DNA of 64,000 bases from the sequence record OK272490.1; one strand, given 5' to 3'. The stretch is from Escherichia phage JLBYU32. The position numbers and the translations under genes are program-made. A model generated the notes under the pieces. It did no database searches. It saw nothing but the letters and a program-made list of their open reading frames with translations, and had not been told where the DNA came from. Below, piece by piece: positions 21,687-29,065 of the stretch. The first letter of the stretch is position 1, and every line of letters begins with the position of its first letter.

Positions 21687-22058
21687 ATGAAAAACAGAAC
21701 AAACAAAGGCCAGTTTAAAAAAGGCCAGTCTGGAAACCCATCTGGAAGACCTAAAGGCTCTCGTAACAAAAGTTCACTCGTAAAAGCTCAACTGACCATT
21801 GATAATTCTGCTGAGTTTGCTGCAAAGTTGTTTGAAGCGATTGTTACAAGGGATGCTGCTAAGCTTGCAGAGTTCGGTTTGACGACTGACGATGTAAACC
21901 TGAAGTCGATGATGGAAGCTGGTAAAACTATCATGACCCACTCAGCAGGTGAGATGAAAGCGATTGCAGCAGACACTAAGAAGACCCCTGATAATGGTGG
22001 TCAAACCCAGACAGATAACAAACCAACGTTTTCTGCTGTAGCGACTCTCAAAAAATAA
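21687..22058 (+). CDS. hypothetical protein with N-terminal AT-hook-like GNPSGRPKG motif
   Basis: KGQSGNPSGRPKGSRNK basic motif. Confidence 0.5.
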   Translation: MKNRTNKGQFKKGQSGNPSGRPKGSRNKSSLVKAQLTIDNSAEFAAKLFEAIVTRDAAKLAEFGLTTDDVNLKSMMEAGKTIMTHSAGEMKAIAADTKKTPDNGGQTQTDNKPTFSAVATLKK

Positions 22059-22138: not shown

Positions 22139-23554
22139 ATGAGCGAGTTATTTAAACATGCGCACCTTCATGCAGGTCGAACTGAAAATGGTGCTGTAAA
22201 CCATACTTCATCAATGTCTTCTCTGGTAGACTTTTACAAAGCCGCTGGCTCAAGCCGTAGTAATGTAGAAATCTTACCAGACCTGTTCTACAAAGCTTTG
22301 CGTGAGGATGTTGATGTTGCAGTTCGTATTTTGCTTCATATGCGAGATGTACGAGAAGGTATGGGTGAGCGTAAAGCTTTCCGAACTGTTTTACTTCAAG
22401 CGATTGAAGATAAAGTTTTAGAGCCTACGCAGGTTCTTCGCATTATGGGTAAGATTGCAGAACTTGGTCGTTTTGATGACTTCAAAATCTTCGCAGGTAC
22501 TCGTTTTGAGACAGATGCCTTCAAACATTTAGAAGCAGCATTACTAGACCCTGCAACAGCAGGTTTAGCAGCTAAGTGGTTGCCACGAGTAAAACCACGC
22601 CACAAACAGTTTGTAAAACGTTTCTGCAAGTTTGCAAACTTAAGTGAGAAGGAGTATCGCACACTGTTGTCTGCACTGTCTGATACGGTTGAGCAAAAAA
22701 TCTCTGCTAATGAGTTTGGTAAGATTGACTACAGCAAGATTCCTTCACTCGCTGCTGCACGTTACCAAAAACTCTTTAACCGTAAAGATGGGGAACGTTA
22801 CAAAGCTTACATTGAGTCCCTCTCAAAAGGTGAGGCTAAGATTAACGCTGGCGCTGTTTACCCATACGATGTGATTAAATCTATCAAGTATGGTAATGCA
22901 GATGTTGCTAATGAGCAGTGGAAAGCACTACCAAACTGGATGGCAGAAGGTGAAAACATCCTGTGTATGACTGATGTTTCAAGCTCAATGTCTTGGGTGA
23001 ATCTTGGTTCAATCACTGCCCTTGATATTGGTGTATCACTTGCATTGTATGTAGCAGAACGCAATACAGGTTGCTTTAAAAATGAGTTAATGGTGTACTC
23101 AACAGACCCTCATTTCATCGAACTGAGTGGTGATTTACAGACTCGTATGCGTCAAGTAATGAGTCATGTTGAATATGGTTCAACTTACTTACAAGCAGCT
23201 TTTGACCGTATTCTTGAGATAGGTAAAAGAAACAACTTGACTCAGGAAGATATGCCAAGTAAGCTTATCATCTTCTCCGATATGGAGTTCAATCAGGTTG
23301 ATGGTGCTAACGGTCGTACAAACTTTGAAGCAATTCAGAGTAAGTACAAAAAAGCTGGATATGAGATGCCACAACTGGTATTCTGGTACTTAGCAAACCG
23401 TAATGGCACTTGCGAAGTATCTGTTAAGGATAACGGTGTAGCAATGGTATCTGGTTTCTCTCCAGCCACTTTAAAAGCTCTGCTTGGTGGTGAGAAGTTT
23501 GACCCAATCAGCGTAATGCTCAAAGCAGTAATGATTGACCGTTACATTTGGTAA
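22139..23554 (+). CDS. vWA-domain protein with MIDAS-like DxSxS motif (Ro60/TROVE- or DUF2828-like architecture)
   Basis: alpha-helical N-terminal half; CMTDVSSSMS MIDAS-like motif and FSDMEF in C-terminal half; 471 aa. Confidence 0.45.
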   Translation: MSELFKHAHLHAGRTENGAVNHTSSMSSLVDFYKAAGSSRSNVEILPDLFYKALREDVDVAVRILLHMRDVREGMGERKAFRTVLLQAIEDKVLEPTQVLRIMGKIAELGRFDDFKIFAGTRFETDAFKHLEAALLDPATAGLAAKWLPRVKPRHKQFVKRFCKFANLSEKEYRTLLSALSDTVEQKISANEFGKIDYSKIPSLAAARYQKLFNRKDGERYKAYIESLSKGEAKINAGAVYPYDVIKSIKYGNADVANEQWKALPNWMAEGENILCMTDVSSSMSWVNLGSITALDIGVSLALYVAERNTGCFKNELMVYSTDPHFIELSGDLQTRMRQVMSHVEYGSTYLQAAFDRILEIGKRNNLTQEDMPSKLIIFSDMEFNQVDGANGRTNFEAIQSKYKKAGYEMPQLVFWYLANRNGTCEVSVKDNGVAMVSGFSPATLKALLGGEKFDPISVMLKAVMIDRYIW

Positions 23555-23572
23555 AAAGTTTCAAAAAGGGTA

Positions 23573-23601
23573 TTGACAATATGTTTGATACCCTTTAATA
23601 T
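23573..23601 (+). promoter_or_regulatory. sigma70-like promoter TTGACA-17-TAATAT overlapped by palindrome GGGTATTGACAATA...ATACCC
   Basis: consensus boxes; inverted repeat spans the -35; upstream of tRNA cluster. Confidence 0.55.
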
Positions 23602-23663
23602 GTTCTACATAGAAACGAAATGAGAGCTTTTCTAAGATACTGAAAAATATTTTAAAAAAGTTC

Positions 23664-23692
23664 TTGACAATCACTAAAAAATAATGTTAAAG
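23664..23692 (+). promoter_or_regulatory. candidate promoter TTGACA with weak -10, just upstream of first tRNA
   Basis: TTGACA at 23664; -10 ambiguous. Confidence 0.3.
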
Positions 23693-23719
23693 TGGTTACA
23701 TAGAGTTTGAAAAGTTTAT

Positions 23720-23796
23720 CTCTGTTTAGCTCAGCTTGGTAGAGCGTTCCGTTTGGGGCGGTAAGGCCGGAGGTTCAAGTCCTCCAACAGAGACCA
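23720..23796 (+). tRNA. tRNA-Pro (anticodon TGG)
   Basis: hand-folded cloverleaf; 7-bp acceptor, T-arm GGAGG-TTCAAGT-CCTCC, CCA encoded. Confidence 0.7.
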
Positions 23797-23803
23797 AATT
23801 AAT

Positions 23804-23881
23804 GTTCCAGTAGACAAAACGGTAAAGTCACCACTCTTTCAAAGTGGATATTTGAGGGCTCAAATCCCTTCTGGAACGCCA
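23804..23881 (+). tRNA. tRNA-Glu (anticodon TTC), atypical T-loop CTCAAAT
   Basis: perfect acceptor and anticodon stems; loop CTTTCAA. Confidence 0.7.
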
Positions 23882-23883
23882 GT

Positions 23884-23963
23884 TTTGACAGAAGACCAAT
23901 TACAGCAAGTTTAATCTTATTCATCTGACACGAAATCGGACAAAGAAGAGATTTGGTCTGGTC
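23884..23963 (+). repeat. tRNA spacer element CAGAAGACC..ACAGCAA ... TTGGTCTGG (copy 1)
   Basis: long-range inverted repeat AGACC/GGTCT; recurs at least 4 times between tRNAs. Confidence 0.6.
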
Positions 23964-23972
23964 ATTAAGAAT

Positions 23973-24049
23973 TGCGGGTATAGAGAAAGGGCGTCTCACA
24001 TGTCTCATTAGCATGGTATCGGCAGGTTCGACTCCTGCACCCGCCTCCA
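23973..24049 (+). tRNA. tRNA-Met (anticodon CAT)
   Basis: anticodon loop CTCATTA; T-arm GCAGG-TTCGACT-CCTGC; 1-72 mismatch. Confidence 0.65.
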
Positions 24050-24050
24050 A

Positions 24051-24117
24051 TTTTGCAGAAGACCGTATGCAGCAATAAACTACTTTTTGCGGATAAAAGA
24101 AAAAACACGGTCTGGCA
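24051..24117 (+). repeat. tRNA spacer element (copy 2)
   Basis: TTTTGCAGAAGACCGTATGCAGCAA ... CACGGTCTGGC. Confidence 0.6.
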
Positions 24118-24126
24118 ATGTATTAA

Positions 24127-24203
24127 GGTTAGGAAGCACATAAGGTATGTGCGGTCGCCTGTTAAGCGAATGGCACAGGGTTCGAATCCCTGACTAACCG
24201 CCA
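24127..24203 (+). tRNA. tRNA-Asn (anticodon GTT)
   Basis: loop CTGTTAA; T-arm CAGGG-TTCGAAT-CCCTG. Confidence 0.75.
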
Positions 24204-24212
24204 AATTTAAAT

Positions 24213-24300
24213 GTGTCGTTATCCCGTAGATGGTAGCGGTGGGGACTGTAAATCCCTTGTCATTGAGACTCGGTAGGTTCGACTCCTACACGGCACACCA
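24213..24300 (+). tRNA. tRNA-Tyr (anticodon GTA), long variable arm
   Basis: 88 nt; loop CTGTAAA; T-arm GTAGG-TTCGACT-CCTAC. Confidence 0.7.
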
Positions 24301-24306
24301 AATAAA

Positions 24307-24384
24307 GGTTATGTAGTTTAATCTGGTTAAAATACTCCCCTGTCACGGGAGATGATGAGGGTTCAAATCCCTTCGTAACCGCCA
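24307..24384 (+). tRNA. tRNA-Asp (anticodon GTC)
   Basis: anticodon stem CTCCC/GGGAG, loop CTGTCAC. Confidence 0.75.
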
Positions 24385-24442
24385 ATTTTGAGAGGGCTAT
24401 TTAGCCCCTCCCTTAAAGAGTTCTTACGAGTATTCTTTAAAG

Positions 24443-24514
24443 GAGCAGAAGACCAAATACAGCAAATACGTATGATATTTTCAAGCCAATTTAATTTTGA
24501 AAAAATTTAAAACT
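24443..24514 (+). repeat. tRNA spacer element (copy 3)
   Basis: GCAGAAGACCAAATACAGCAA ... AACTTGGTCTGGC. Confidence 0.6.
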
Positions 24515-24520
24515 TGGTCT

Positions 24521-24668
24521 GGCTCAACAATTTTACAGAAGACCGTTTACAGCAAAACTTAAACAATCTATTTCTCGGTAAAGAAAAGGAGAAGGTTCGA
24601 TTCCTTCACTCGACAGATGTCGAGTTGGTGTAATGGTAGCACTTAAGATGATAAACAACGGTCTGGTA
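24521..24668 (+). repeat. tRNA spacer element (copy 4) containing a tRNA-like fragment
   Basis: TTTTACAGAAGACCGTTTACAGCAA ... AACGGTCTGG. Confidence 0.6.
24585..24640 (+). pseudogene. tRNA-like fragment: T-arm then acceptor-like hairpin then D-arm-like segment (degenerate or permuted tRNA?)
   Basis: GAAGG-TTCGATT-CCTTC then ACTCGAC-AGAT-GTCGAGT then TGGTGTAATGGTAGCAC; no canonical cloverleaf in normal order. Confidence 0.25.
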
Positions 24669-24817
24669 ATCATCTTTGCAGTAGCTTATGTGGCTAATTA
24701 TGTCGTCCCATGAGTGCCGATGAATTTCCTTAGCATGATTCTAGATTAGCTTAATAGGAAATGACTCTACAGACCCTTTAGCAAGGTCTGCGTAGGTTAC
24801 TGCAAAGATGATTTAAT

Positions 24818-24892
24818 GGAAGTGTAGCAGAATGGTGATGCGGCAGACTTTTAATCTGACAGGCGATGGGTTCGAATCCCTCCACTTCTACC
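24818..24892 (+). tRNA. tRNA-Lys (anticodon TTT)
   Basis: loop CTTTTAA; paralog of tRNA at 26051 (shared T-arm GATGGGTTCRAWTCCCTCC). Confidence 0.65.
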
Positions 24893-24897
24893 AAAAT

Positions 24898-24974
24898 GGT
24901 TCAGTCGCAGATAAGGTAATGCAGGGGTCTCATAAGCCCTATGAATGTGGGTTCGATTCCCATCTGAACCTCCA
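24898..24974 (+). tRNA. tRNA with anticodon CAT (Met, or Ile via lysidine)
   Basis: loop CTCATAA; perfect acceptor GGTTCAG/CTGAACC. Confidence 0.7.
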
Positions 24975-24976
24975 AT

Positions 24977-25051
24977 TGTGGGTTAGCATAAATGGTAATG
25001 CAAACGGCTGATAACCGTTAGAAGAGGGTTCGATACCCTCACCTACAACCA
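24977..25051 (+). tRNA. tRNA-Ile (anticodon GAT)
   Basis: anticodon stem AACGG/CCGTT, loop CTGATAA. Confidence 0.75.
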
Positions 25052-25066
25052 ATTTCAATAAAGTTG

Positions 25067-25095
25067 TTGACATTTAGATGTGACCACTTTATAGT
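25067..25095 (+). promoter_or_regulatory. sigma70-like promoter TTGACA-17-TATAGT inside tRNA cluster
   Basis: consensus boxes; followed by ~200 nt of structured non-tRNA sequence before next tRNA. Confidence 0.6.
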
Positions 25096-25299
25096 AACCT
25101 TAGTTTTCGTTGCGTAGCGTCTATTTTGCAAATTTAAAATAAATGCAAACGACAATGTTTTTCTGGCAGTAGCTTGATAGGCTAAACACCAGTGAGGTCT
25201 TCCAATCCCTCATCAAAGAATTTGGCGTACTAGCCCACGGTATGATTAATAAAGTGGGCATCTTTAAGGGCTTTCTAAGAGAGTCTTTAAAGATAATTA

Positions 25300-25381
25300 C
25301 GGGGCGTATCTCAGCTGTCTTCTAAACAGCCGTTAACCGAGTAAGTGGAGTATGCGGGTTCGAGTCCTGCCGCCTCGACCA
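25300..25381 (+). tRNA. atypical tRNA-like gene (possible anticodon TCT, Arg); fold uncertain
   Basis: good acceptor and T-arm (GCGGG-TTCGAGT-CCTGC) but non-canonical D region; hairpin GCTGT-CTTCTAA-ACAGC. Confidence 0.35.
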
Positions 25382-25524
25382 ATTTAGTTAGCAGATTACT
25401 TAGACGACCTAAGCGGGTCTTCCTGTAGGGAGGTGGTCTGTATCTCATGTTTTCCAGAACATGTAAATAATCTGAGAAGGGGCTTTACAGTGTTGAGATA
25501 ATACGGTAAGCTTCGAATTATAGT

Positions 25525-25606
25525 ATGGGACGATGTTAAGACTCTAAGGCATGAGCAACGGCTTCCAACACCGTTTCAAAGGGGTTCAACTCCTCCGTCC
25601 CATGCC
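25525..25606 (+). tRNA. atypical tRNA, possibly tRNA-Trp (anticodon CCA) with oversized D region
   Basis: perfect 7-bp acceptor ATGGGAC/GTCCCAT, T-loop TTCAACT; candidate anticodon loop TTCCAAC. Confidence 0.4.
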
Positions 25607-25620
25607 AAAGTCTTATTAGG

Positions 25621-25708
25621 GGTAGGTAGCGGCTAATGGTAGCCAAACTGTCTTGAAAACAGTTGCCACTGTAGAGATACGGTGAGGGTTCGACTCCTTT
25701 ACTTACCG
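25621..25708 (+). tRNA. tRNA-Ser (anticodon TGA), long variable arm
   Basis: 88 nt; anticodon stem ACTGT/ACAGT loop CTTGAAA; CCA not encoded. Confidence 0.7.
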
Positions 25709-25855
25709 CCTAATAAGATTTAAAGCCAAGCTTCATTCGGATGTTGCTTTGGTATACCGCGTGTATTGTTGTACACACAGATAAAACACCTAGTAGGTGT
25801 CACGGAGAAGAGATAATATCAAGCTCTCCAAAGGTTCTAGTCACCGGATTAAACA

Positions 25856-25880
25856 AGACTATGCAAAGACCTTTTTAGGT
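25856..25880 (+). terminator. hairpin + T-tract inside tRNA cluster spacer
   Basis: AAGACC-TTTTT-AGGTCTT followed by TTTTAGAG. Confidence 0.4.
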
Positions 25881-25966
25881 CTTTTTAGAGGGCTTCTAAG
25901 GTTATTAGTCGCTTGTTGTGGAACCTTGTTGCTCAGGTTCTTAGAAGTTCTCTAAAAAGATTTAAT

Positions 25967-26043
25967 GCACCTATAGCCCAACTGGTGGAGGCAGCAGACT
26001 TAGAATCTGCTCAGTGTGAGTTCGAATCTCTCTAGGTGTACCA
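25967..26043 (+). tRNA. tRNA with anticodon TAG (Leu by anticodon) but class I (short variable loop) shape
   Basis: anticodon stem GCAGA/TCTGC loop CTTAGAA; 77 nt; discriminator A. Confidence 0.6.
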
Positions 26044-26050
26044 AATTAAT

Positions 26051-26126
26051 GCAGGTGTAGCAAAATGGTTATGCGGCTGACTCTTAATCAGTAAGACGAT
26101 GGGTTCAATTCCCTCCACCTGTACCA
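26051..26126 (+). tRNA. tRNA-Lys (anticodon CTT)
   Basis: loop CTCTTAA; paralog of tRNA-Lys(TTT) at 24818. Confidence 0.65.
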
Positions 26127-26132
26127 AACATT

Positions 26133-26208
26133 GGGGTCATAGTTTATATGGTTAAAATTCGAGTTTTGCAAACTTGGGAACTGAGTTCAATTCTCAGTGA
26201 CTCCACCA
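26133..26208 (+). tRNA. tRNA-Ala (anticodon TGC)
   Basis: G3:U70 wobble pair in acceptor stem; loop TTTGCAA; T-arm CTGAG-TTCAATT-CTCAG. Confidence 0.8.
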
Positions 26209-26214
26209 ATTAGT

Positions 26215-26289
26215 GCATCCATAGTTTAAACGGGAAAATTACAGTCTTCCAAACTGAGGTTGAGGGTTCGATTCCCTCTGGATGCTCCA
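26215..26289 (+). tRNA. tRNA-Gly (anticodon TCC)
   Basis: perfect acceptor GCATCCA/TGGATGC; loop CTTCCAA. Confidence 0.75.
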
Positions 26290-26296
26290 AATTAAT

Positions 26297-26372
26297 GCTC
26301 CTATCGTATAATTGGCTATTACGGTTGCCTTGTAAGCAACTTATCAGGGTTCGAATCCTTGTGGGAGCACCA
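26297..26372 (+). tRNA. tRNA-Thr (anticodon TGT)
   Basis: anticodon stem GTTGC/GCAAC loop CTTGTAA. Confidence 0.8.
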
Positions 26373-26467
26373 ATTCAGAGGTCAAGTGAAAGACCGCTTT
26401 GAGTCAACTGAAGACCGTAACAAATTCCACGGAGTTGAGTTAGCGGCACAACTCCAGACCTCTTTCA

Positions 26468-26543
26468 TACTCGCTTAGTTTATATGGTAAAACATCACCC
26501 TTACAAGATGAAGAAAAAGGTTCAAGTCCTTTAGTGAGTACCA
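26468..26543 (+). tRNA. tRNA-Val (anticodon TAC)
   Basis: T-arm AAAGG-TTCAAGT-CCTTT; loop CTTACAA. Confidence 0.65.
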
Positions 26544-26544
26544 T

Positions 26545-26622
26545 GTTCCAGTATCCCAATTGGCAGAGGATGCAAGCTCAAACCTTGTACTAGTGACGGT
26601 TCGAATCCGTCTTGGAACACCA
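26545..26622 (+). tRNA. tRNA with anticodon CAA (Leu by anticodon), class I shape
   Basis: T-arm GACGG-TTCGAAT-CCGTC; loop CTCAAAC; discriminator A. Confidence 0.6.
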
Positions 26623-26627
26623 ATTTT

Positions 26628-26703
26628 GCAGGATTAGTTCAAATGGAAAGAGCAACAGTCTACGAAGCTGTTAATAGGGGTTCGAATCCCTTATCCTGCG
26701 CCA
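26628..26703 (+). tRNA. tRNA-Arg (anticodon ACG)
   Basis: perfect acceptor GCAGGAT/ATCCTGC; loop CTACGAA. Confidence 0.8.
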
Positions 26704-26722
26704 ATTTAAAGAGGCTATTTAG

Positions 26723-27280
26723 ATGAGATATTTGAAGTATGCTTCATGGATTTTCTTAGCTTTGTTAGAGCCATTTGCAGCAATCTTAGCAGTTATCTTA
26801 GCACCTTTTGTAGTTCCATTCTACAGTGAGAAGAAAGGACACTTACCTTTCGGGTTCAGATGGATGGAGACATATGACAACCCAATTGATGGTGATGAAG
26901 GTCACGTTAAAAGATGGGCTAATATTAGATGGATTGGTAAACTAGGTGTCTACATGCAAAGAGTCGGATGGCTCTGGAGAAACAAAGCTTATAACTTCTC
27001 TTACCATGTATTAGGAAGAGATGTAAAAGATGTTACTAAGTGGAAAGGTAATATCAACGTAAGTTCTGACCCCGAAGATAATCAGACAGGTTATCTCCTA
27101 ATGTGGAACAGTAATGCTTGGGGATTATTCGCTTTTATCCCATCAATTAAAATCTTTGGTAAACAATTTTACTGGAGAATTTATATTGGATGGAAACTAA
27201 AAAGTGTTGTCCCAGAAGAAAGAGCATTCTCAAGGGAAAGAGTTATGTTGGCATTCTTTATTCATCCACTGAGAAAGTAA
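26723..27280 (+). CDS. hypothetical membrane-anchored, Trp-rich protein embedded in tRNA cluster
   Basis: AAAGAGG RBS 8 nt upstream of ATG; N-terminal hydrophobic segment. Confidence 0.55.
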   Translation: MRYLKYASWIFLALLEPFAAILAVILAPFVVPFYSEKKGHLPFGFRWMETYDNPIDGDEGHVKRWANIRWIGKLGVYMQRVGWLWRNKAYNFSYHVLGRDVKDVTKWKGNINVSSDPEDNQTGYLLMWNSNAWGLFAFIPSIKIFGKQFYWRIYIGWKLKSVVPEERAFSRERVMLAFFIHPLRK

Positions 27281-27288
27281 AGATTTAA

Positions 27289-27364
27289 AGGGGATTAGTT
27301 TACAAGGTTAAAACCTCGGTCTTTGAAATCGAAGAAGTTGGTTCAATTCCAACATCCCCCGCCA
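27289..27364 (+). tRNA. tRNA-Gln (anticodon TTG)
   Basis: T-arm GTTGG-TTCAATT-CCAAC; loop CTTTGAA. Confidence 0.7.
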
Positions 27365-27366
27365 AT

Positions 27367-27445
27367 GCTCCATTACTCCAATTGGCAGAGAGGCCAGACT
27401 TAAAATCTGTGTTATGTATCGGTTCGAATCCGATATGGAGTACCA
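27367..27445 (+). tRNA. tRNA with anticodon TAA (Leu by anticodon), class I-like shape
   Basis: T-arm ATCGG-TTCGAAT-CCGAT; loop CTTAAAA; discriminator A. Confidence 0.6.
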
Positions 27446-27450
27446 AATTT

Positions 27451-27526
27451 AGCGGTATAGCATAACTGGCAATGCAGCAGCCTCTGAAGCTGTCCTATTA
27501 AGGTTCAAATCCTTATGCCGCTGCCA
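27451..27526 (+). tRNA. tRNA-Gln (anticodon CTG)
   Basis: T-arm TAAGG-TTCAAAT-CCTTA; loop CTCTGAA. Confidence 0.65.
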
Positions 27527-27557
27527 CTTCTAAGGATTCTTGCGAGAGTCCTTAAAT

Positions 27558-27633
27558 GTGGCCTTATCATAAATGGTAATGACCCATGCTGTGAACATGG
27601 TCTATACGGGTTCAAATCCCGTAGGTCACCCCA
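27558..27633 (+). tRNA. tRNA-His (anticodon GTG)
   Basis: anticodon stem CCATG/CATGG loop CTGTGAA; discriminator C. Confidence 0.75.
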
Positions 27634-27639
27634 ATTTAT

Positions 27640-27715
27640 AGTCCAAGTAGCTTATATGGTTAAAGCGCGTGTCTGAAAAACATGAGAAGAGGGTTCGAAT
27701 CCCACTGGACTACCA
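27640..27715 (+). tRNA. tRNA-Phe (anticodon GAA)
   Basis: loop CTGAAAA; T-loop TTCGAAT; acceptor pairing slightly ambiguous. Confidence 0.65.
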
Positions 27716-27731
27716 ATTTCAAAGGTGCTTA

Positions 27732-28466
27732 ATGAAAGAGATGACAGAACAAGGTAAGGAGATTTTTAATCTCTTAAAAACCGGTAGAGGGTTTTCTAAT
27801 CCCCTTATTACTGGTGCAGCAGTTCTCGGTGGAACCGTAGCTGCCTCTACATCACTTGTAAGTTCTATTAGCTCTGTAACAGACCCTACAATGAAGGAGA
27901 AACTTGTTGCTGCTGGACTTACAACAGTCCTTCTAAACAGCTTTACAACAAGCCTTACAAGCACTACAGCGACTACTAAGACCTTAACAGACTATGGTCA
28001 AAAGTCTATTGATGAGTTTTCATCACGTATGCAGGTAGCAAAGGGGTATTCCAATGTTATGGGTGCAGCAGGGGAACAAGTTGGCTGTACACCGTTTAGT
28101 GGTATTATGGGCGTTGCTACAGAATATGGTCAAAAAGCTATTGACACAATTAACAGTGCACTAGATGACGTTAATGATGTATTAAGTGACTTACAAGATG
28201 CTATTGATAAGGGTCTTGATACTGTTTCTGATTTAGCTAATCAGGCTGTTAGCAAGATTAATGAAGGTATCTCGAAGATTACAGCTTATGCAGATGAAGT
28301 TGTGCAGATGATTGAAGAAGAAGCTGCCCTTATTGCAGAGTACCTTAAAACGAATATCAATGGGTTCTTAGCAGGTATCTTACCAGACTGGTTTGATGAT
28401 GCCTGTAAAACTGGTGTAATTGATACTATTGCAACACCAGAAATGAAGAGCGCATTACAGAAGTAA
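27732..28466 (+). CDS. hypothetical Ser/Thr/Ala-rich protein embedded in tRNA cluster
   Basis: start moved to ATG 27732 (track start 27669 is an alternative start inside tRNA-Phe); ends 1 nt before tRNA-Ser. Confidence 0.5.
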   Translation: MKEMTEQGKEIFNLLKTGRGFSNPLITGAAVLGGTVAASTSLVSSISSVTDPTMKEKLVAAGLTTVLLNSFTTSLTSTTATTKTLTDYGQKSIDEFSSRMQVAKGYSNVMGAAGEQVGCTPFSGIMGVATEYGQKAIDTINSALDDVNDVLSDLQDAIDKGLDTVSDLANQAVSKINEGISKITAYADEVVQMIEEEAALIAEYLKTNINGFLAGILPDWFDDACKTGVIDTIATPEMKSALQK

Positions 28467-28467
28467 T

Positions 28468-28560
28468 GGAAGATTAACCCTAAAAGGTAAGGGAGCAGTT
28501 TGCTAAACTGCCAGTAGCTGAGAAATCGGTGTACCAGTTCAAGTCTGGTATCTTCCTCCA
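28468..28560 (+). tRNA. tRNA-Ser (anticodon GCT), long variable arm
   Basis: 93 nt; perfect acceptor GGAAGAT/ATCTTCC; anticodon stem GCAGT/ACTGC loop TTGCTAA. Confidence 0.75.
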
Positions 28561-28564
28561 ATTT

Positions 28565-28640
28565 GAATCCGTGACAGAAATGGCTATGTGCCTGTCTGCA
28601 AAACAGGTTTATAAGGGTTCGAGTCCCTTCGGATTCTCCA
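28565..28640 (+). tRNA. tRNA-Cys (anticodon GCA)
   Basis: perfect acceptor GAATCCG/CGGATTC; anticodon stem CCTGT/ACAGG loop CTGCAAA. Confidence 0.8.
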
Positions 28641-28679
28641 AGTTATTTTACTCTCTCTCTCAATTAAAATAATAATAAT

Positions 28680-28740
28680 GCCCTGCTATAAGTATTCTTC
28701 CTTTCGCTACCGAAGAGTATTTTTAGACAGGGCTTTTTTA
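28680..28740 (+). terminator. long hairpin + T-tract terminator after tRNA cluster
   Basis: GCCCTG ... CAGGGC with internal complementarity followed by TTTTTT. Confidence 0.6.
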
Positions 28741-28804
28741 CAGAGCTATACTTTATAAGAAGACTTATACAGTATGTCTCTGACGTACATTGTGGTTTCT
28801 CCTT

Positions 28805-28830
28805 GACGGTCTCTGTGCCGTCTTTTTTAA
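28805..28830 (+). terminator. hairpin + T-tract
   Basis: GACGG-TCTCTGTG-CCGTC followed by TTTTTT. Confidence 0.5.
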
Positions 28831-28864
28831 GGGGAAACATGGTTAATTATTTGGAGAAAACATA

Positions 28865-29065
28865 ATGAGCGAGACCGTTTATAAAGAACTTTATGAAGCT
28901 AACAAGAAGCTAGAATTTATGCAGAATACTATCATGGCAATTGCAGACAGATTATCTGTAGCAACAGGCATTGATATTAAAGAAGCATCTATGGATGCAC
29001 TTCTTGATGCTGTTGATGCAAAGTTCGAAGTTAAGAAAGAAGAGACTGCTACAGACTCTGAATAA
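28865..29065 (+). CDS. hypothetical small acidic protein upstream of terminase
   Basis: GGAG RBS; first gene of late + strand module. Confidence 0.5.
   Translation: MSETVYKELYEANKKLEFMQNTIMAIADRLSVATGIDIKEASMDALLDAVDAKFEVKKEETATDSE

What the first reader, a model, noticed from the sequence alone, without database searches (positions are those of the whole stretch)
23884..24668. Repeated structured spacer elements between tRNA genes
At least four spacers share the same architecture: a 5' box (T)TTT(G/A)CAGAAGACC(A/G)...ACAGCAA, a variable A/T-rich middle, then a 3' box (T/C)GGTCTGG(C/T) that can pair with the 5' AGACC. A related copy with two GAAGACC boxes lies at 26390-26455. They look like co-transcribed small stable RNAs or processing signals rather than random spacer.
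Basis: seen in the sequence. Interest (0 to 1): 0.6.

Follow-up and report, generated by a model that had tools for sequence, protein, structure and literature searches.

The report
Phage Y-RNA-like partners of Ro60-like protein
The four repeated spacers in this phage's tRNA gene cluster are most likely small non-coding RNAs that dock onto the Ro60-like ring protein encoded just upstream, and they belong to a widespread phage RNA family that seems not to have been described.

Summary
Four elements (23886-23964, 24053-24118, 24443-24525, 24533-24669, + strand) share one architecture: a 7-bp helix, then N3, an unpaired CAGCAA box, a variable interior, the complementary strand and a trailing G. 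Chance expectation is 0.01 copies.

The same RNA module sits on the protein's strand next to homologues only 29-45% identical. It gave 96 hits against 6 on the opposite strand in 79 viral loci, and 52 against 5 in an independent set of 80 genome loci. Helix sequences covary freely while the box stays fixed.

The interior of copy 4 is a permuted tRNA-like domain (T arm, 7-bp acceptor hairpin, D arm), as in bacterial YrlA Y RNAs. Rfam's YrlA model aligns this domain in a distant relative below threshold, but not the protein-binding stem.

Best reading: these are Y-RNA-like partners of a divergent phage Ro60, released by tRNA processing. Binding and expression are untested. A preprint on phage Bas63 guessed that such Y RNAs exist among the tRNA genes but did not locate them. 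The "related copy" at 26390-26455 lacks the box and is not a member.

The parts
22139..23554 (+). Gene for a 471-aa Ro60-like protein (TROVE-like HEAT ring plus a vWA domain with DxSxS MIDAS motif). Proposed protein partner of the RNAs.
23573..23693 (+). Two promoter-like sites (TTGACA-17-TAATAT at 23573-23601; TTGACA-18-TAAAGT with TG at 23664-23693) ahead of the tRNA/RNA array.
   Evidence: Consensus scan. These are pattern matches only. No + strand terminator-like site lies between 23700 and 25060.
23886..23964 (+). Copy 1, short form. Outer stem TGAC/GTCA, AGA loop, helix AGACCAA/TTGGTCT (23893-23899 / 23953-23959), TTA, CAGCAA box (23903-23908), 44-nt A/U-rich interior, trailing G 23960. 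Lies 4 nt after tRNA-Glu and 8 nt before tRNA-Met.
24053..24118 (+). Copy 2, short form. Outer stem TTGC/GCAA, helix AGACCGT/ACGGTCT (24060-24066 / 24107-24113), ATG, CAGCAA (24070-24075), 31-nt interior, trailing G 24114. Lies between tRNA-Met and tRNA-Asn.
   Evidence: Compensatory TTGC/GCAA <-> TTAC/GTAA among orthologues.
24443..24525 (+). Copy 3, short form. Outer stem GAGC/GCTC, helix AGACCAA/TTGGTCT (24450-24456 / 24514-24520), ATA, CAGCAA (24460-24465), 48-nt interior, trailing G 24521.
24533..24669 (+). Copy 4, long form (YrlA-like). Outer stem TTAC/GTAA, helix AGACCGT/ACGGTCT (24540-24546 / 24658-24664), TTA, CAGCAA (24550-24555), trailing G 24665, and a tRNA-like interior.
   Evidence: Covariance model R1 gives 75.3 bits, E 2e-13.
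24591..24642 (+). tRNA-like domain of copy 4, in permuted order. T arm GAAGG-TTCGATT-CCTTC (24591-24607); 7-bp acceptor-like hairpin ACTCGAC-AGAT-GTCGAGT (24608-24625); TG; D arm GTGT-AATGGTA-GCAC (24628-24642). It carries U8, A14, G18 G19, A21 and T54-loop consensus bases.
   Evidence: Read from the sequence, MFE fold, and covariation of all three helices across the family.
23804..24203 (+). Flanking tRNA genes: Glu 23804-23881, Met 23973-24049, Asn 24127-24203. Their RNase P and 3'-end processing would release copies 1 and 2 with short tails (inferred).
   Evidence: ARAGORN, Rfam.

Best explanation
The four elements are genes for small non-coding RNAs of the Y-RNA kind, and their partner is the Ro60-like protein encoded immediately upstream.

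Each RNA closes on a 7-bp helix, consensus 5'-W-G-R-N4 / N4-Y-C-W-3'. On the loop side the helix is followed by N-U-W and an unpaired C(A/C)GCAA box. On the open side it is followed by an unpaired G. This conserved module is the proposed docking site for the protein ring (inferred). The interior is a swappable 'cargo'.

In copies 1-3 the cargo is a loosely structured A/U-rich loop. In copy 4 it is a tRNA top half (T arm, acceptor hairpin, D arm) in the same permuted order as in bacterial YrlA.

The RNAs are transcribed with the tRNAs from the promoters at about 23573 and 23664. They would be freed by the RNase P and 3'-end processing of the neighbouring tRNAs (inferred from the 3-8 nt spacing).

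By analogy with Ro60/Y RNA complexes, they would gate the ring's RNA-binding surface and cavity, or tether it to tRNA-recognising or RNA-degrading host enzymes such as PNPase. The result would be a phage RNP that acts on RNA, probably tRNA, during infection.

Shown here: the repeat, its conserved and covarying structure, the protein's fold, and the genetic linkage of RNA and protein across distant phages. Inferred: expression, processing, binding and downstream function.
For: 1. Repeat far above chance: 4 observed against 0.01 expected.

3. Linkage. A fixed pattern (7-nt strand with G at position 2, a 1-4 nt gap, C[AC]GCA[AGT], 20-140 nt, complementary strand, G) gave 96 hits on the protein's strand in 61 of 79 viral loci whose protein is 29-45% identical. 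The opposite strand gave 6 and shuffles gave 2-7. Almost all hits had a 3-nt gap, lay next to the gene, and often came in tandem sets of 2-4.

4. Replication. On an independent hold-out of 80 genome-contig loci, the 3-nt-gap form of the pattern gave 52 against 5, with shuffles at 0-4.

5. In the 64-kb window the pattern finds the four copies plus one chance hit per strand.

6. G2, the middle U of the gap and the trailing G remain strongly enriched when they are not imposed.

7. Covariance model R1 of the long form gave 53 hits at E<=0.01, all on the protein's strand in 913 kb searched on both strands. On that alignment 91.8% of cells pair against 61.7% in shuffles. Double changes number 275 against 84. 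The covariation score is 0.454 against 0.13, with 0 of 500 shuffles reaching it. Slid controls pair at 35-47%. All four helices covary.

8. Orthologues show a clean compensatory switch in the outer stem of copy 2.

9. Rfam's YrlA model matches the long form in L077 at 39.1 bits, E 3e-7. It aligns the T arm, acceptor hairpin and D arm.

10. Precedent. Y RNAs lie within 4 kb of Ro60 on the same strand, including in phages (PMC4201824). Thermus phage phiLo Ro60 binds two upstream Y-like RNAs and host PNPase (PMC12135203). For the Felixounavirus Bas63, gp130 (Ro60-like, directly upstream of the tRNA genes) counters the ppl defence, and the authors guessed that Y RNAs hide among the tRNA genes (PMC11482910).
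Against: - No expression, end-mapping or binding data exist for these RNAs.
- The sequence motif that defines bacterial YrlA (GNCGAAN0-1G) and the metazoan Ro-binding helix are absent.
- Rfam's YrlA model does not match copy 4 even at E<=10.
- The strict pattern misses 18 of 79 viral loci and 50 of 80 genome loci, mostly Clostridia-type relatives at 31-35% identity. The pattern may be too narrow: Yersinia phage P778 has the module with a trailing A. Alternatively, many homologues may lack such RNAs.
- In the Bas63 preprint, gp130 alone, moved to a plasmid or into T7, restored plaquing on the ppl strain. The RNAs are therefore not needed for that phenotype.
- That gp130 is the orthologue of the window's gene is inferred from genus and synteny, not checked by sequence.
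- The covariation alignment was fitted to the model, which leans towards the structure.
Confidence: 0.75

Rival explanations
1. The elements are cis-acting processing signals. In this reading they are spacer structures that guide RNase III, E or P cleavage of the polycistronic tRNA precursor, and they have no life of their own.
For: They sit between tRNA genes within 3-8 nt of tRNA ends. Leader-trailer helices are used this way in rRNA operons (general knowledge).
Against: The same module occurs directly next to the Ro60-like gene in many loci with no tRNA gene within 5 kb, for example L042, L045, L047-L049, L051, L055-L058. Most tRNA junctions in this array lack it. The conserved unpaired box and the tRNA-like cargo have no role in such a model. 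A 7-bp helix is too short for RNase III.
Confidence: 0.06
2. The RNAs are free-standing tRNA-mimic decoys or sponges, for host anticodon nucleases, RNases or tRNA-modifying enzymes. They would act without binding the Ro60-like protein, and the linkage would reflect only a shared role in tRNA-centred conflict.
For: Cargo domains mimic tRNA parts. Examples are the elbow plus acceptor in copy 4, and anticodon-arm-like hairpins (UUUGACUUUUAAUCAAA) or D, anticodon and T arms in other phages. gp130 works against ppl without the RNAs.
Against: The part conserved across all members is not the tRNA-like cargo but the helix-box-G module. The module has no tRNA counterpart, is present in short forms without any tRNA mimicry, and tracks the protein gene and its strand. 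That pattern is what a protein-docking site looks like.
Confidence: 0.1
3. The module is a cis-regulatory or autoregulatory site on the mRNA of the Ro60-like gene. It could be an operator or a 3' stabiliser, secondarily duplicated into the tRNA array in Felixounaviruses.
For: In many distant loci a single short form lies about 30 nt after the stop codon or just before the start of the gene.
Against: In the window the copies lie 330-1100 nt downstream, behind separate promoter-like sites, and are interleaved with tRNAs. Tandem arrays of 2-4 with different cargos and full tRNA-like domains are not expected of an operator. The helix is not followed by a U-run, so it is not a terminator.
Confidence: 0.07
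4. The elements are selfish or decaying DNA: miniature inverted-repeat elements or tRNA pseudogene debris.
For: Short inverted termini (AGACC/GGTCT) and multiple copies. Copy 4 contains tRNA pieces.
Against: Strand bias is 96:6 and 52:5 relative to the protein gene. Pairing is preserved while sequence changes. An unpaired box is invariant. The tRNA-like helices covary across phages with 30-45% protein identity. No copies occur elsewhere in the 64-kb window.
Confidence: 0.02

Closest known systems
YrlA, the bacterial Y RNA-like RNA (Rfam RF02553; Chen et al. 2014, PMC4201824)
   Same: It is encoded within a few kb of a Ro60-type gene on the same strand, often with a shorter second RNA (YrlB), which parallels the long and short forms here. 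The 5' and 3' ends pair into the proposed protein-binding stem. The interior is a tRNA-like domain in the order T arm, acceptor hairpin, D arm. The Rfam model aligns that domain in relative L077 (39.1 bits, E 3e-7). The 7-bp acceptor hairpin of copy 4 resembles M. smegmatis YrlA, which is cut by RNase P and receives CCA.
   Different: The protein-binding module differs: helix, N3, C(A/C)GCAA and a trailing G, in place of GNCGAAN0-1G. Rfam's gathering score is not reached in L077, and there is no match at all in the window at E<=10. The partner protein belongs to Pfam DUF2828/DUF7788 and is not recognised as TROVE by sequence. Cargos are far more varied. In this phage the genes are embedded in a tRNA array.
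Yrl1/Yrl2 of Thermus phage phiLo with phage Ro60 (PMC12135203)
   Different: phiLo has a canonical TROVE protein and a CGAA motif in a bulge. Its RNAs lie upstream of the gene and not among tRNAs. Binding and a PNPase complex were shown experimentally there, and nothing has been shown here.
Metazoan and Deinococcus Y RNAs
   Same: A terminal stem with conserved bases and an unpaired nucleotide as the Ro60 site, a large variable loop, and several paralogues per genome.
   Different: There is no sequence similarity, and the conserved bases sit differently. The AGACC/GGUCU core of the window copies is a feature of these close relatives, not of the family.
Phage T4 stable RNAs C and D (species 1 and 2)
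   Same: Small stable RNAs of unknown function, co-transcribed and co-processed with the phage tRNA cluster.
   Different: The T4 rnaC and rnaD sequences have tRNA-like 3' ends. They have no helix-CAGCAA-G module, and model R1 gives no match beyond the T loop. No Ro60-like gene is annotated in the 8-kb stretch examined around the T4 tRNA cluster.

Membership tests
Y RNA (Ro60-associated ncRNA, broad sense) | Encoded close to a Ro60-type protein gene, on the same strand (the criterion used for bacteria and phages). | tested here: met
   Copies lie 332-1115 nt downstream of a gene whose product has the Ro60 fold. The linkage holds in distant loci: 96:6 and 52:5 by strand.
Y RNA (Ro60-associated ncRNA, broad sense) | About 50-140 nt, with a terminal stem formed by the 5' and 3' ends that carries conserved nucleotides, plus a large variable loop or module. 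| tested here: met
   Elements of 66-137 nt. Covarying 7-bp stem with conserved G2-C, an adjacent box and a trailing G. Variable interior.
Y RNA (Ro60-associated ncRNA, broad sense) | Physically bound by the Ro60 protein. | not testable with these tools
   Needs RIP/CLIP or EMSA.
YrlA (Rfam RF02553) | Match to the Rfam covariance model at the gathering score (69 bits). | tested here: not met
   Window 23000-29000 at E<=1 and 23880-24820 at E<=10: no YrlA match. Relative L077: 39.1 bits, below gathering.
YrlA (Rfam RF02553) | GNCGAAN0-1G motif in the Ro60-binding region (PMC4201824). | tested here: not met
   The conserved unpaired motif is C(A/C)GCAA after a 3-nt gap. In the YrlA alignment of L077 the stem region does not align.
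YrlA (Rfam RF02553) | tRNA-like domain with T arm, acceptor-like stem and D arm. | tested here: met
   Met for copy 4 only: 24591-24642, with helices covarying across the family. Copies 1-3 lack it, like YrlB.
Ro60 / TROVE protein family (for the partner protein) | Sequence match to Pfam TROVE. | tested here: not met
   Only DUF2828 and DUF7788 at E<=0.1. A profile search against PDB sequences gives TROVE at E 2.3 only.
Ro60 / TROVE protein family (for the partner protein) | HEAT-repeat ring followed by a vWA domain with MIDAS motif, superposable on Ro60 structures over the full length. | tested here: met
tRNA / permuted tRNA gene | Complete cloverleaf with an anticodon arm, detectable by tRNA models. 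For permuted genes, also a bulge-helix-bulge junction. | tested here: not met
   ARAGORN and Rfam tRNA models do not call any of the four elements. In copy 4 the place of the anticodon arm is taken by the closing helix and long linkers.
T4 rnaC/rnaD stable RNAs | Sequence or structure similarity to T4 species 1 and 2 RNAs. | tested here: not met
   No module in the T4 sequences. R1 gives only a 13-bit T-loop match.

The most novel reading that the evidence does not exclude
DUF2828/DUF7788 proteins, with thousands of homologues mostly in phages, may be a second and much larger branch of Ro60. In that reading they come with their own, so far unrecorded, Y-like RNA family. Its conserved helix-CAGCAA-G handle would carry interchangeable tRNA-mimic cargos: elbow plus acceptor, anticodon arms, or whole tRNA bodies without acceptor stems. 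The phage would use these RNPs as programmable adaptors or decoys in conflicts over tRNA and RNA decay, and in Felixounaviruses they would be produced as by-products of tRNA array processing.
Probability: 0.35. Interest if true: 0.85.

Novelty: new variant of a known kind. Interest (0 to 1): 0.7.

Why it matters
Ro60/Y RNA particles are conserved from bacteria to humans, yet their function is still debated.

Here the RNA partners of a divergent, very common phage Ro60-like protein can be pointed to base by base. They come with a simple rule (7-bp helix, N3, CAGCAA, trailing G) that finds them in most of the viral loci tested.

This turns a published guess, that some 'tRNA genes' of Bas63 may be Y RNAs, into defined and mutable elements in a genetically tractable E. 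coli phage whose Ro60-like gene already has an anti-defence phenotype.

The modular cargos, which mimic different parts of tRNA, suggest how such RNPs choose their targets. The elements also fill unannotated 'spacers' in several hundred deposited Felixounavirus-like genomes.

Tried and rejected
- First module filter. It required 'AG' before and 'TG' after the helix. The register was wrong, because those bases are inside the helix, and it missed even the window's copies. It was replaced by the pattern.
- Single-sequence AF2 (pLDDT 44) and sequence searches against PDB said nothing about the protein. The alignment-based model did.
- Rfam. No described family covers the four elements. Scanning 12 distant loci at gathering scores gave only tRNAs and one group I intron.
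- T4 species 1 and 2 RNAs are not related.
- Conserved neighbour genes such as RtcB, PNPase or ligases. Three annotated neighbourhoods share nothing but the protein, the RNAs and often tRNAs.
- The 'fifth copy' at 26373-26468 is a conserved structured spacer, but it has no box and no trailing G.
- A K-turn reading of the AGA/G internal loop was rejected, because the non-bulged strand lacks the tandem G-A partners.
- A permuted functional tRNA was rejected, because there is no anticodon arm.
- Literature search for expression data on Felixounaviruses found nothing usable.
- Relaxed ARAGORN runs on two tRNA-like stretches at 25299-25381 and 25517-25608 gave no credible call.

Full report
**Where we are.** The window is a Felixounavirus-type phage. 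Bases 23560-25100 are 96.8% identical to Escherichia phage bumzen, and 336 phage records match. A + strand array of 25 tRNA genes runs from 23720 to 28640. None of the inspected records annotates anything in the spacers.

**The observation.** GAAGACC-N5-CAGCAA occurs four times, all on the + strand (23891, 24058, 24448, 24538), against 0.01 expected. Each occurrence is followed by GGTCTGG. The repeat finder gives the same four-copy family.

Folding and direct reading give one architecture:
- outer 4-bp stem;
- internal loop, AGA opposite G;
- 7-bp helix AGACCRN/NYGGUCU;
- 3 nt, then unpaired CAGCAA;
- interior;
- 3' strand of the helix, then G;
- outer stem.

The outer stems differ between copies but always pair (UGAC/GUCA, UUGC/GCAA, GAGC/GCUC, UUAC/GUAA). 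The two inner pairs are AA/UU or GU/AC. Folding energies alone are unremarkable for copies 1 and 2 (z -0.8 and -1.35).

In 24 of the 27 IMG/VR relatives (protein 84-97% identical) and in phage bumzen all four copies are present, with invariant boxes and interiors of varying length; the other three relatives keep 2-3 by the strict regex. Copy 2's outer stem switches between UUGC/GCAA and UUAC/GUAA in about half of the genomes each, with no unpaired intermediate.

**Copy 4 is different.** Its 102-nt interior contains three tRNA elements:
- a T arm, GAAGG-UUCGAUU-CCUUC (24591-24607);
- a 7-bp hairpin, ACUCGAC-AGAU-GUCGAGU (24608-24625);
- after UG, a D arm, GUGU-AAUGGUA-GCAC (24628-24642).

It carries the tRNA elbow bases (U8, A14, G18 G19, A21, T-loop consensus). 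This is a tRNA top half in permuted order, with the element's closing helix standing where the anticodon arm would be. ARAGORN and the Rfam tRNA model do not call it.

**The neighbour.** The gene ending 165 nt before the tRNA array (22139-23554, 471 aa) matches only Pfam DUF2828 and DUF7788 and PHROG 850 'RNA-binding protein'. Sequence searches of PDB are silent.

The family is large. 2789 proteins reached E<=1e-5 among the candidates scored, and the sources that name a host name phages, for example from Yersinia and Vibrio. At least 591 loci are in IMG/VR.

**Linkage of RNA and protein.** I first looked for 'T arm followed by hairpin' outside tRNA genes in 79 viral loci whose protein is only 29-45% identical. 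That search found permuted tRNA-like elements on the protein's strand, each enclosed by a 7-bp helix whose 5' strand is followed by N3 and C(A/C)GCAA and whose 3' strand is followed by G.

I then turned this into a fixed pattern without any tRNA requirement. It gave 96 hits on the protein's strand in 61 of 79 loci, 6 on the other strand, and 2-7 in shuffles. Nearly all hits had a 3-nt gap, lay within a few hundred bases of the gene, and often formed tandem sets of 2-4.

Helix sequences are almost unconstrained, for example AGAUUAG/CUAAUCU, UGGUUCC/GGAACCA and AGGAUGC/GCAUCCU. With the two imposed G's removed, G2, U5, the middle U of the gap and the trailing G are still strongly enriched.

In the window the pattern returns exactly the four copies plus one chance hit per strand. 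An independent hold-out was fetched only afterwards: 80 loci from bacterial and archaeal assemblies. The 3-nt-gap form of the pattern gave 52 against 5 there, with shuffles at 0-4.

Many positive loci have no tRNA gene within 5 kb, so the module follows the protein and not the tRNAs. Yersinia phage P778 (protein 54% identical, same synteny) has the module with a trailing A. The strict pattern therefore under-counts.

**Structure of the long form.** A covariance model from 12 long forms (R1) found 53 matches at E<=0.01, all on the protein's strand in 913 kb searched on both strands. Copy 4 scores 75.3 bits. One further window hit (24947-25014) is a partial match across a tRNA junction.

On the resulting alignment:
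- 91.8% of cells pair, against 61.7% in shuffles;
- 275 cells carry double changes, against 84;
- the covariation score is 0.454 against 0.13, reached by 0 of 500 shuffles;
- slid controls pair at 35-47%;
- the closing, T, acceptor and D helices all covary.

The alignment is fitted to the model, which favours the structure somewhat.

**Short forms and other cargos.** Short forms, like copies 1-3, are a helix and box around an A-rich, mostly open loop, often with repeated AGCAA. Other cargos include anticodon-arm-like hairpins and whole D, anticodon and T bodies in normal order.

**Comparison with what is known.** Bacterial YrlA RNAs lie within 4 kb of Ro60 on the same strand. They have a Ro-binding stem with GNCGAAN0-1G and a tRNA-like domain, and were reported in 22 phages with annotated TROVE proteins (PMC4201824).

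Rfam's YrlA model matches the long form of L077 at 39.1 bits (gathering 69, E 3e-7). It aligns the T arm, hairpin and D arm well, but not the stem region. It does not match the window at E<=10.

Thermus phage phiLo Ro60 binds two upstream Y-like RNAs and host PNPase (PMC12135203).

For the Felixounavirus Bas63, a preprint reports three things. gp130 is Ro60-like by structure. It lies directly upstream of the tRNA genes. It counters the ppl defence. The authors suggest that 'some tRNA genes are possibly Y RNAs' but do not identify any. gp130 alone also rescues T7 on ppl (PMC11482910).

T4's stable RNAs C and D share only the context. I found no paper describing this RNA module. The library is incomplete, so earlier description elsewhere cannot be excluded.

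**Mechanism.**

*Shown:* a conserved, covarying RNA module genetically tied to a Ro60-fold protein.

*Inferred:*
- The RNAs are transcribed with the tRNAs. Promoter-like sites lie at 23573 and 23664, and there is no + strand terminator before 25060.
- Copies 1 and 2 would be released by processing of the flanking tRNAs, which lie 3-8 nt away.
- The helix-box-G module docks on the ring.
- The cargo gates the ring or tethers it to tRNA-recognising or RNA-degrading enzymes.
- The 7-bp acceptor hairpin of copy 4 could be cut by RNase P, as in M. smegmatis YrlA.

Neighbourhoods give no further functional hint.

**Verdict.** The repeats are real, and they are best explained as Y-RNA-like partners of a divergent phage Ro60. 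They represent a new variant of a known kind, with a sequence rule that generalises to many phages.

Noticed in passing
window 24668-24813 (+): A 146-nt very stable structure directly after copy 4 (MFE -57 kcal/mol, z -6.9) closed by a 23-bp stem, which is long enough for RNase III. It contains a mini-hairpin CAGACC-CUUUAGCAA-GGUCUG (about 24770-24790) that looks like a collapsed version of the module. That hairpin sequence is found only in the window and phage bumzen among the 28 related loci, and many Felixounavirus records stop matching the query near 24680.
   Followed up: partly
window 25299-25381 and 25517-25608 (+): Two stretches with good T arms, 7-bp acceptor stems and encoded CCA, but abnormal D and anticodon regions. 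One has a UCU anticodon-like loop and a long extra arm. The other has a 9-nt loop CUUCCAACA. ARAGORN does not call them even when relaxed, and Rfam gives only a weak tRNA-Sec hit (23 bits). They may be odd tRNAs or further tRNA-like RNAs.
   Followed up: partly
window 26373-26468 (+): A conserved structured spacer between tRNA-Thr and tRNA-Val (closing stem AGAGGUC/GACCUCU, z -3.8, kept in relatives). It lacks the CAGCAA box and the trailing G. Function unknown.
   Followed up: partly
window 24414-24442, 25258-25293, about 25880-25960 (+): Recurrent long hairpins built on CUUUAAAG / UCUAAGAG-type arms in the larger gaps of the tRNA array. One shows a compensatory change in a relative (AAAGAG..UUCUUU versus AAAGGG..UCCUUU in L035).
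   Followed up: no
L040:3133-3233, L041:4276-4371, L044:149-281, L046:3595-3698, L054:1265-1374, L070:4734-4829: A second conserved long subclass of the module family. Its interior ends in a nearly invariant GAACCUUUCUGGAGGGGAAAGCAAAAACUCGCCAAAAC, and it usually lies next to a tRNA-like long form. No Rfam match at gathering score in the three of these loci that were scanned (L040, L041, L046).
   Followed up: no
L065:4801-4860, L076:4754-4818, L080:4758-4854, L085:4734-4834, L109:4755-4831: Module RNAs whose cargo is an anticodon-arm-like hairpin (for example UUUGA-CUUUUAA-UCAAA, a Lys-UUU-like loop), or a D, anticodon and T-arm body in normal order with the module helix in place of the acceptor stem. 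This hints at decoys for anticodon-directed enzymes.
   Followed up: no
short forms such as L047:6409-6470, L051:6416-6473, L055:2084-2142, L064:6424-6481, L067:6398-6456: The open loop of many short forms repeats AGCAA two or three times after the CAGCAA box, as if several copies of a single-strand binding motif were presented.
   Followed up: no
L050:10696-10922: A group I intron (Rfam 71.5 bits) a few kb downstream of the Ro60-like gene in one distant viral contig.
   Followed up: no
window 21687-22058 (+): A 123-aa ORF just upstream of the Ro60-like gene (PHROG 4114, unknown function). A Pfam DUF5681 gene occupies the same position in Yersinia phage P778 (L116:5558-5917). It may be a conserved companion.
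   Followed up: no
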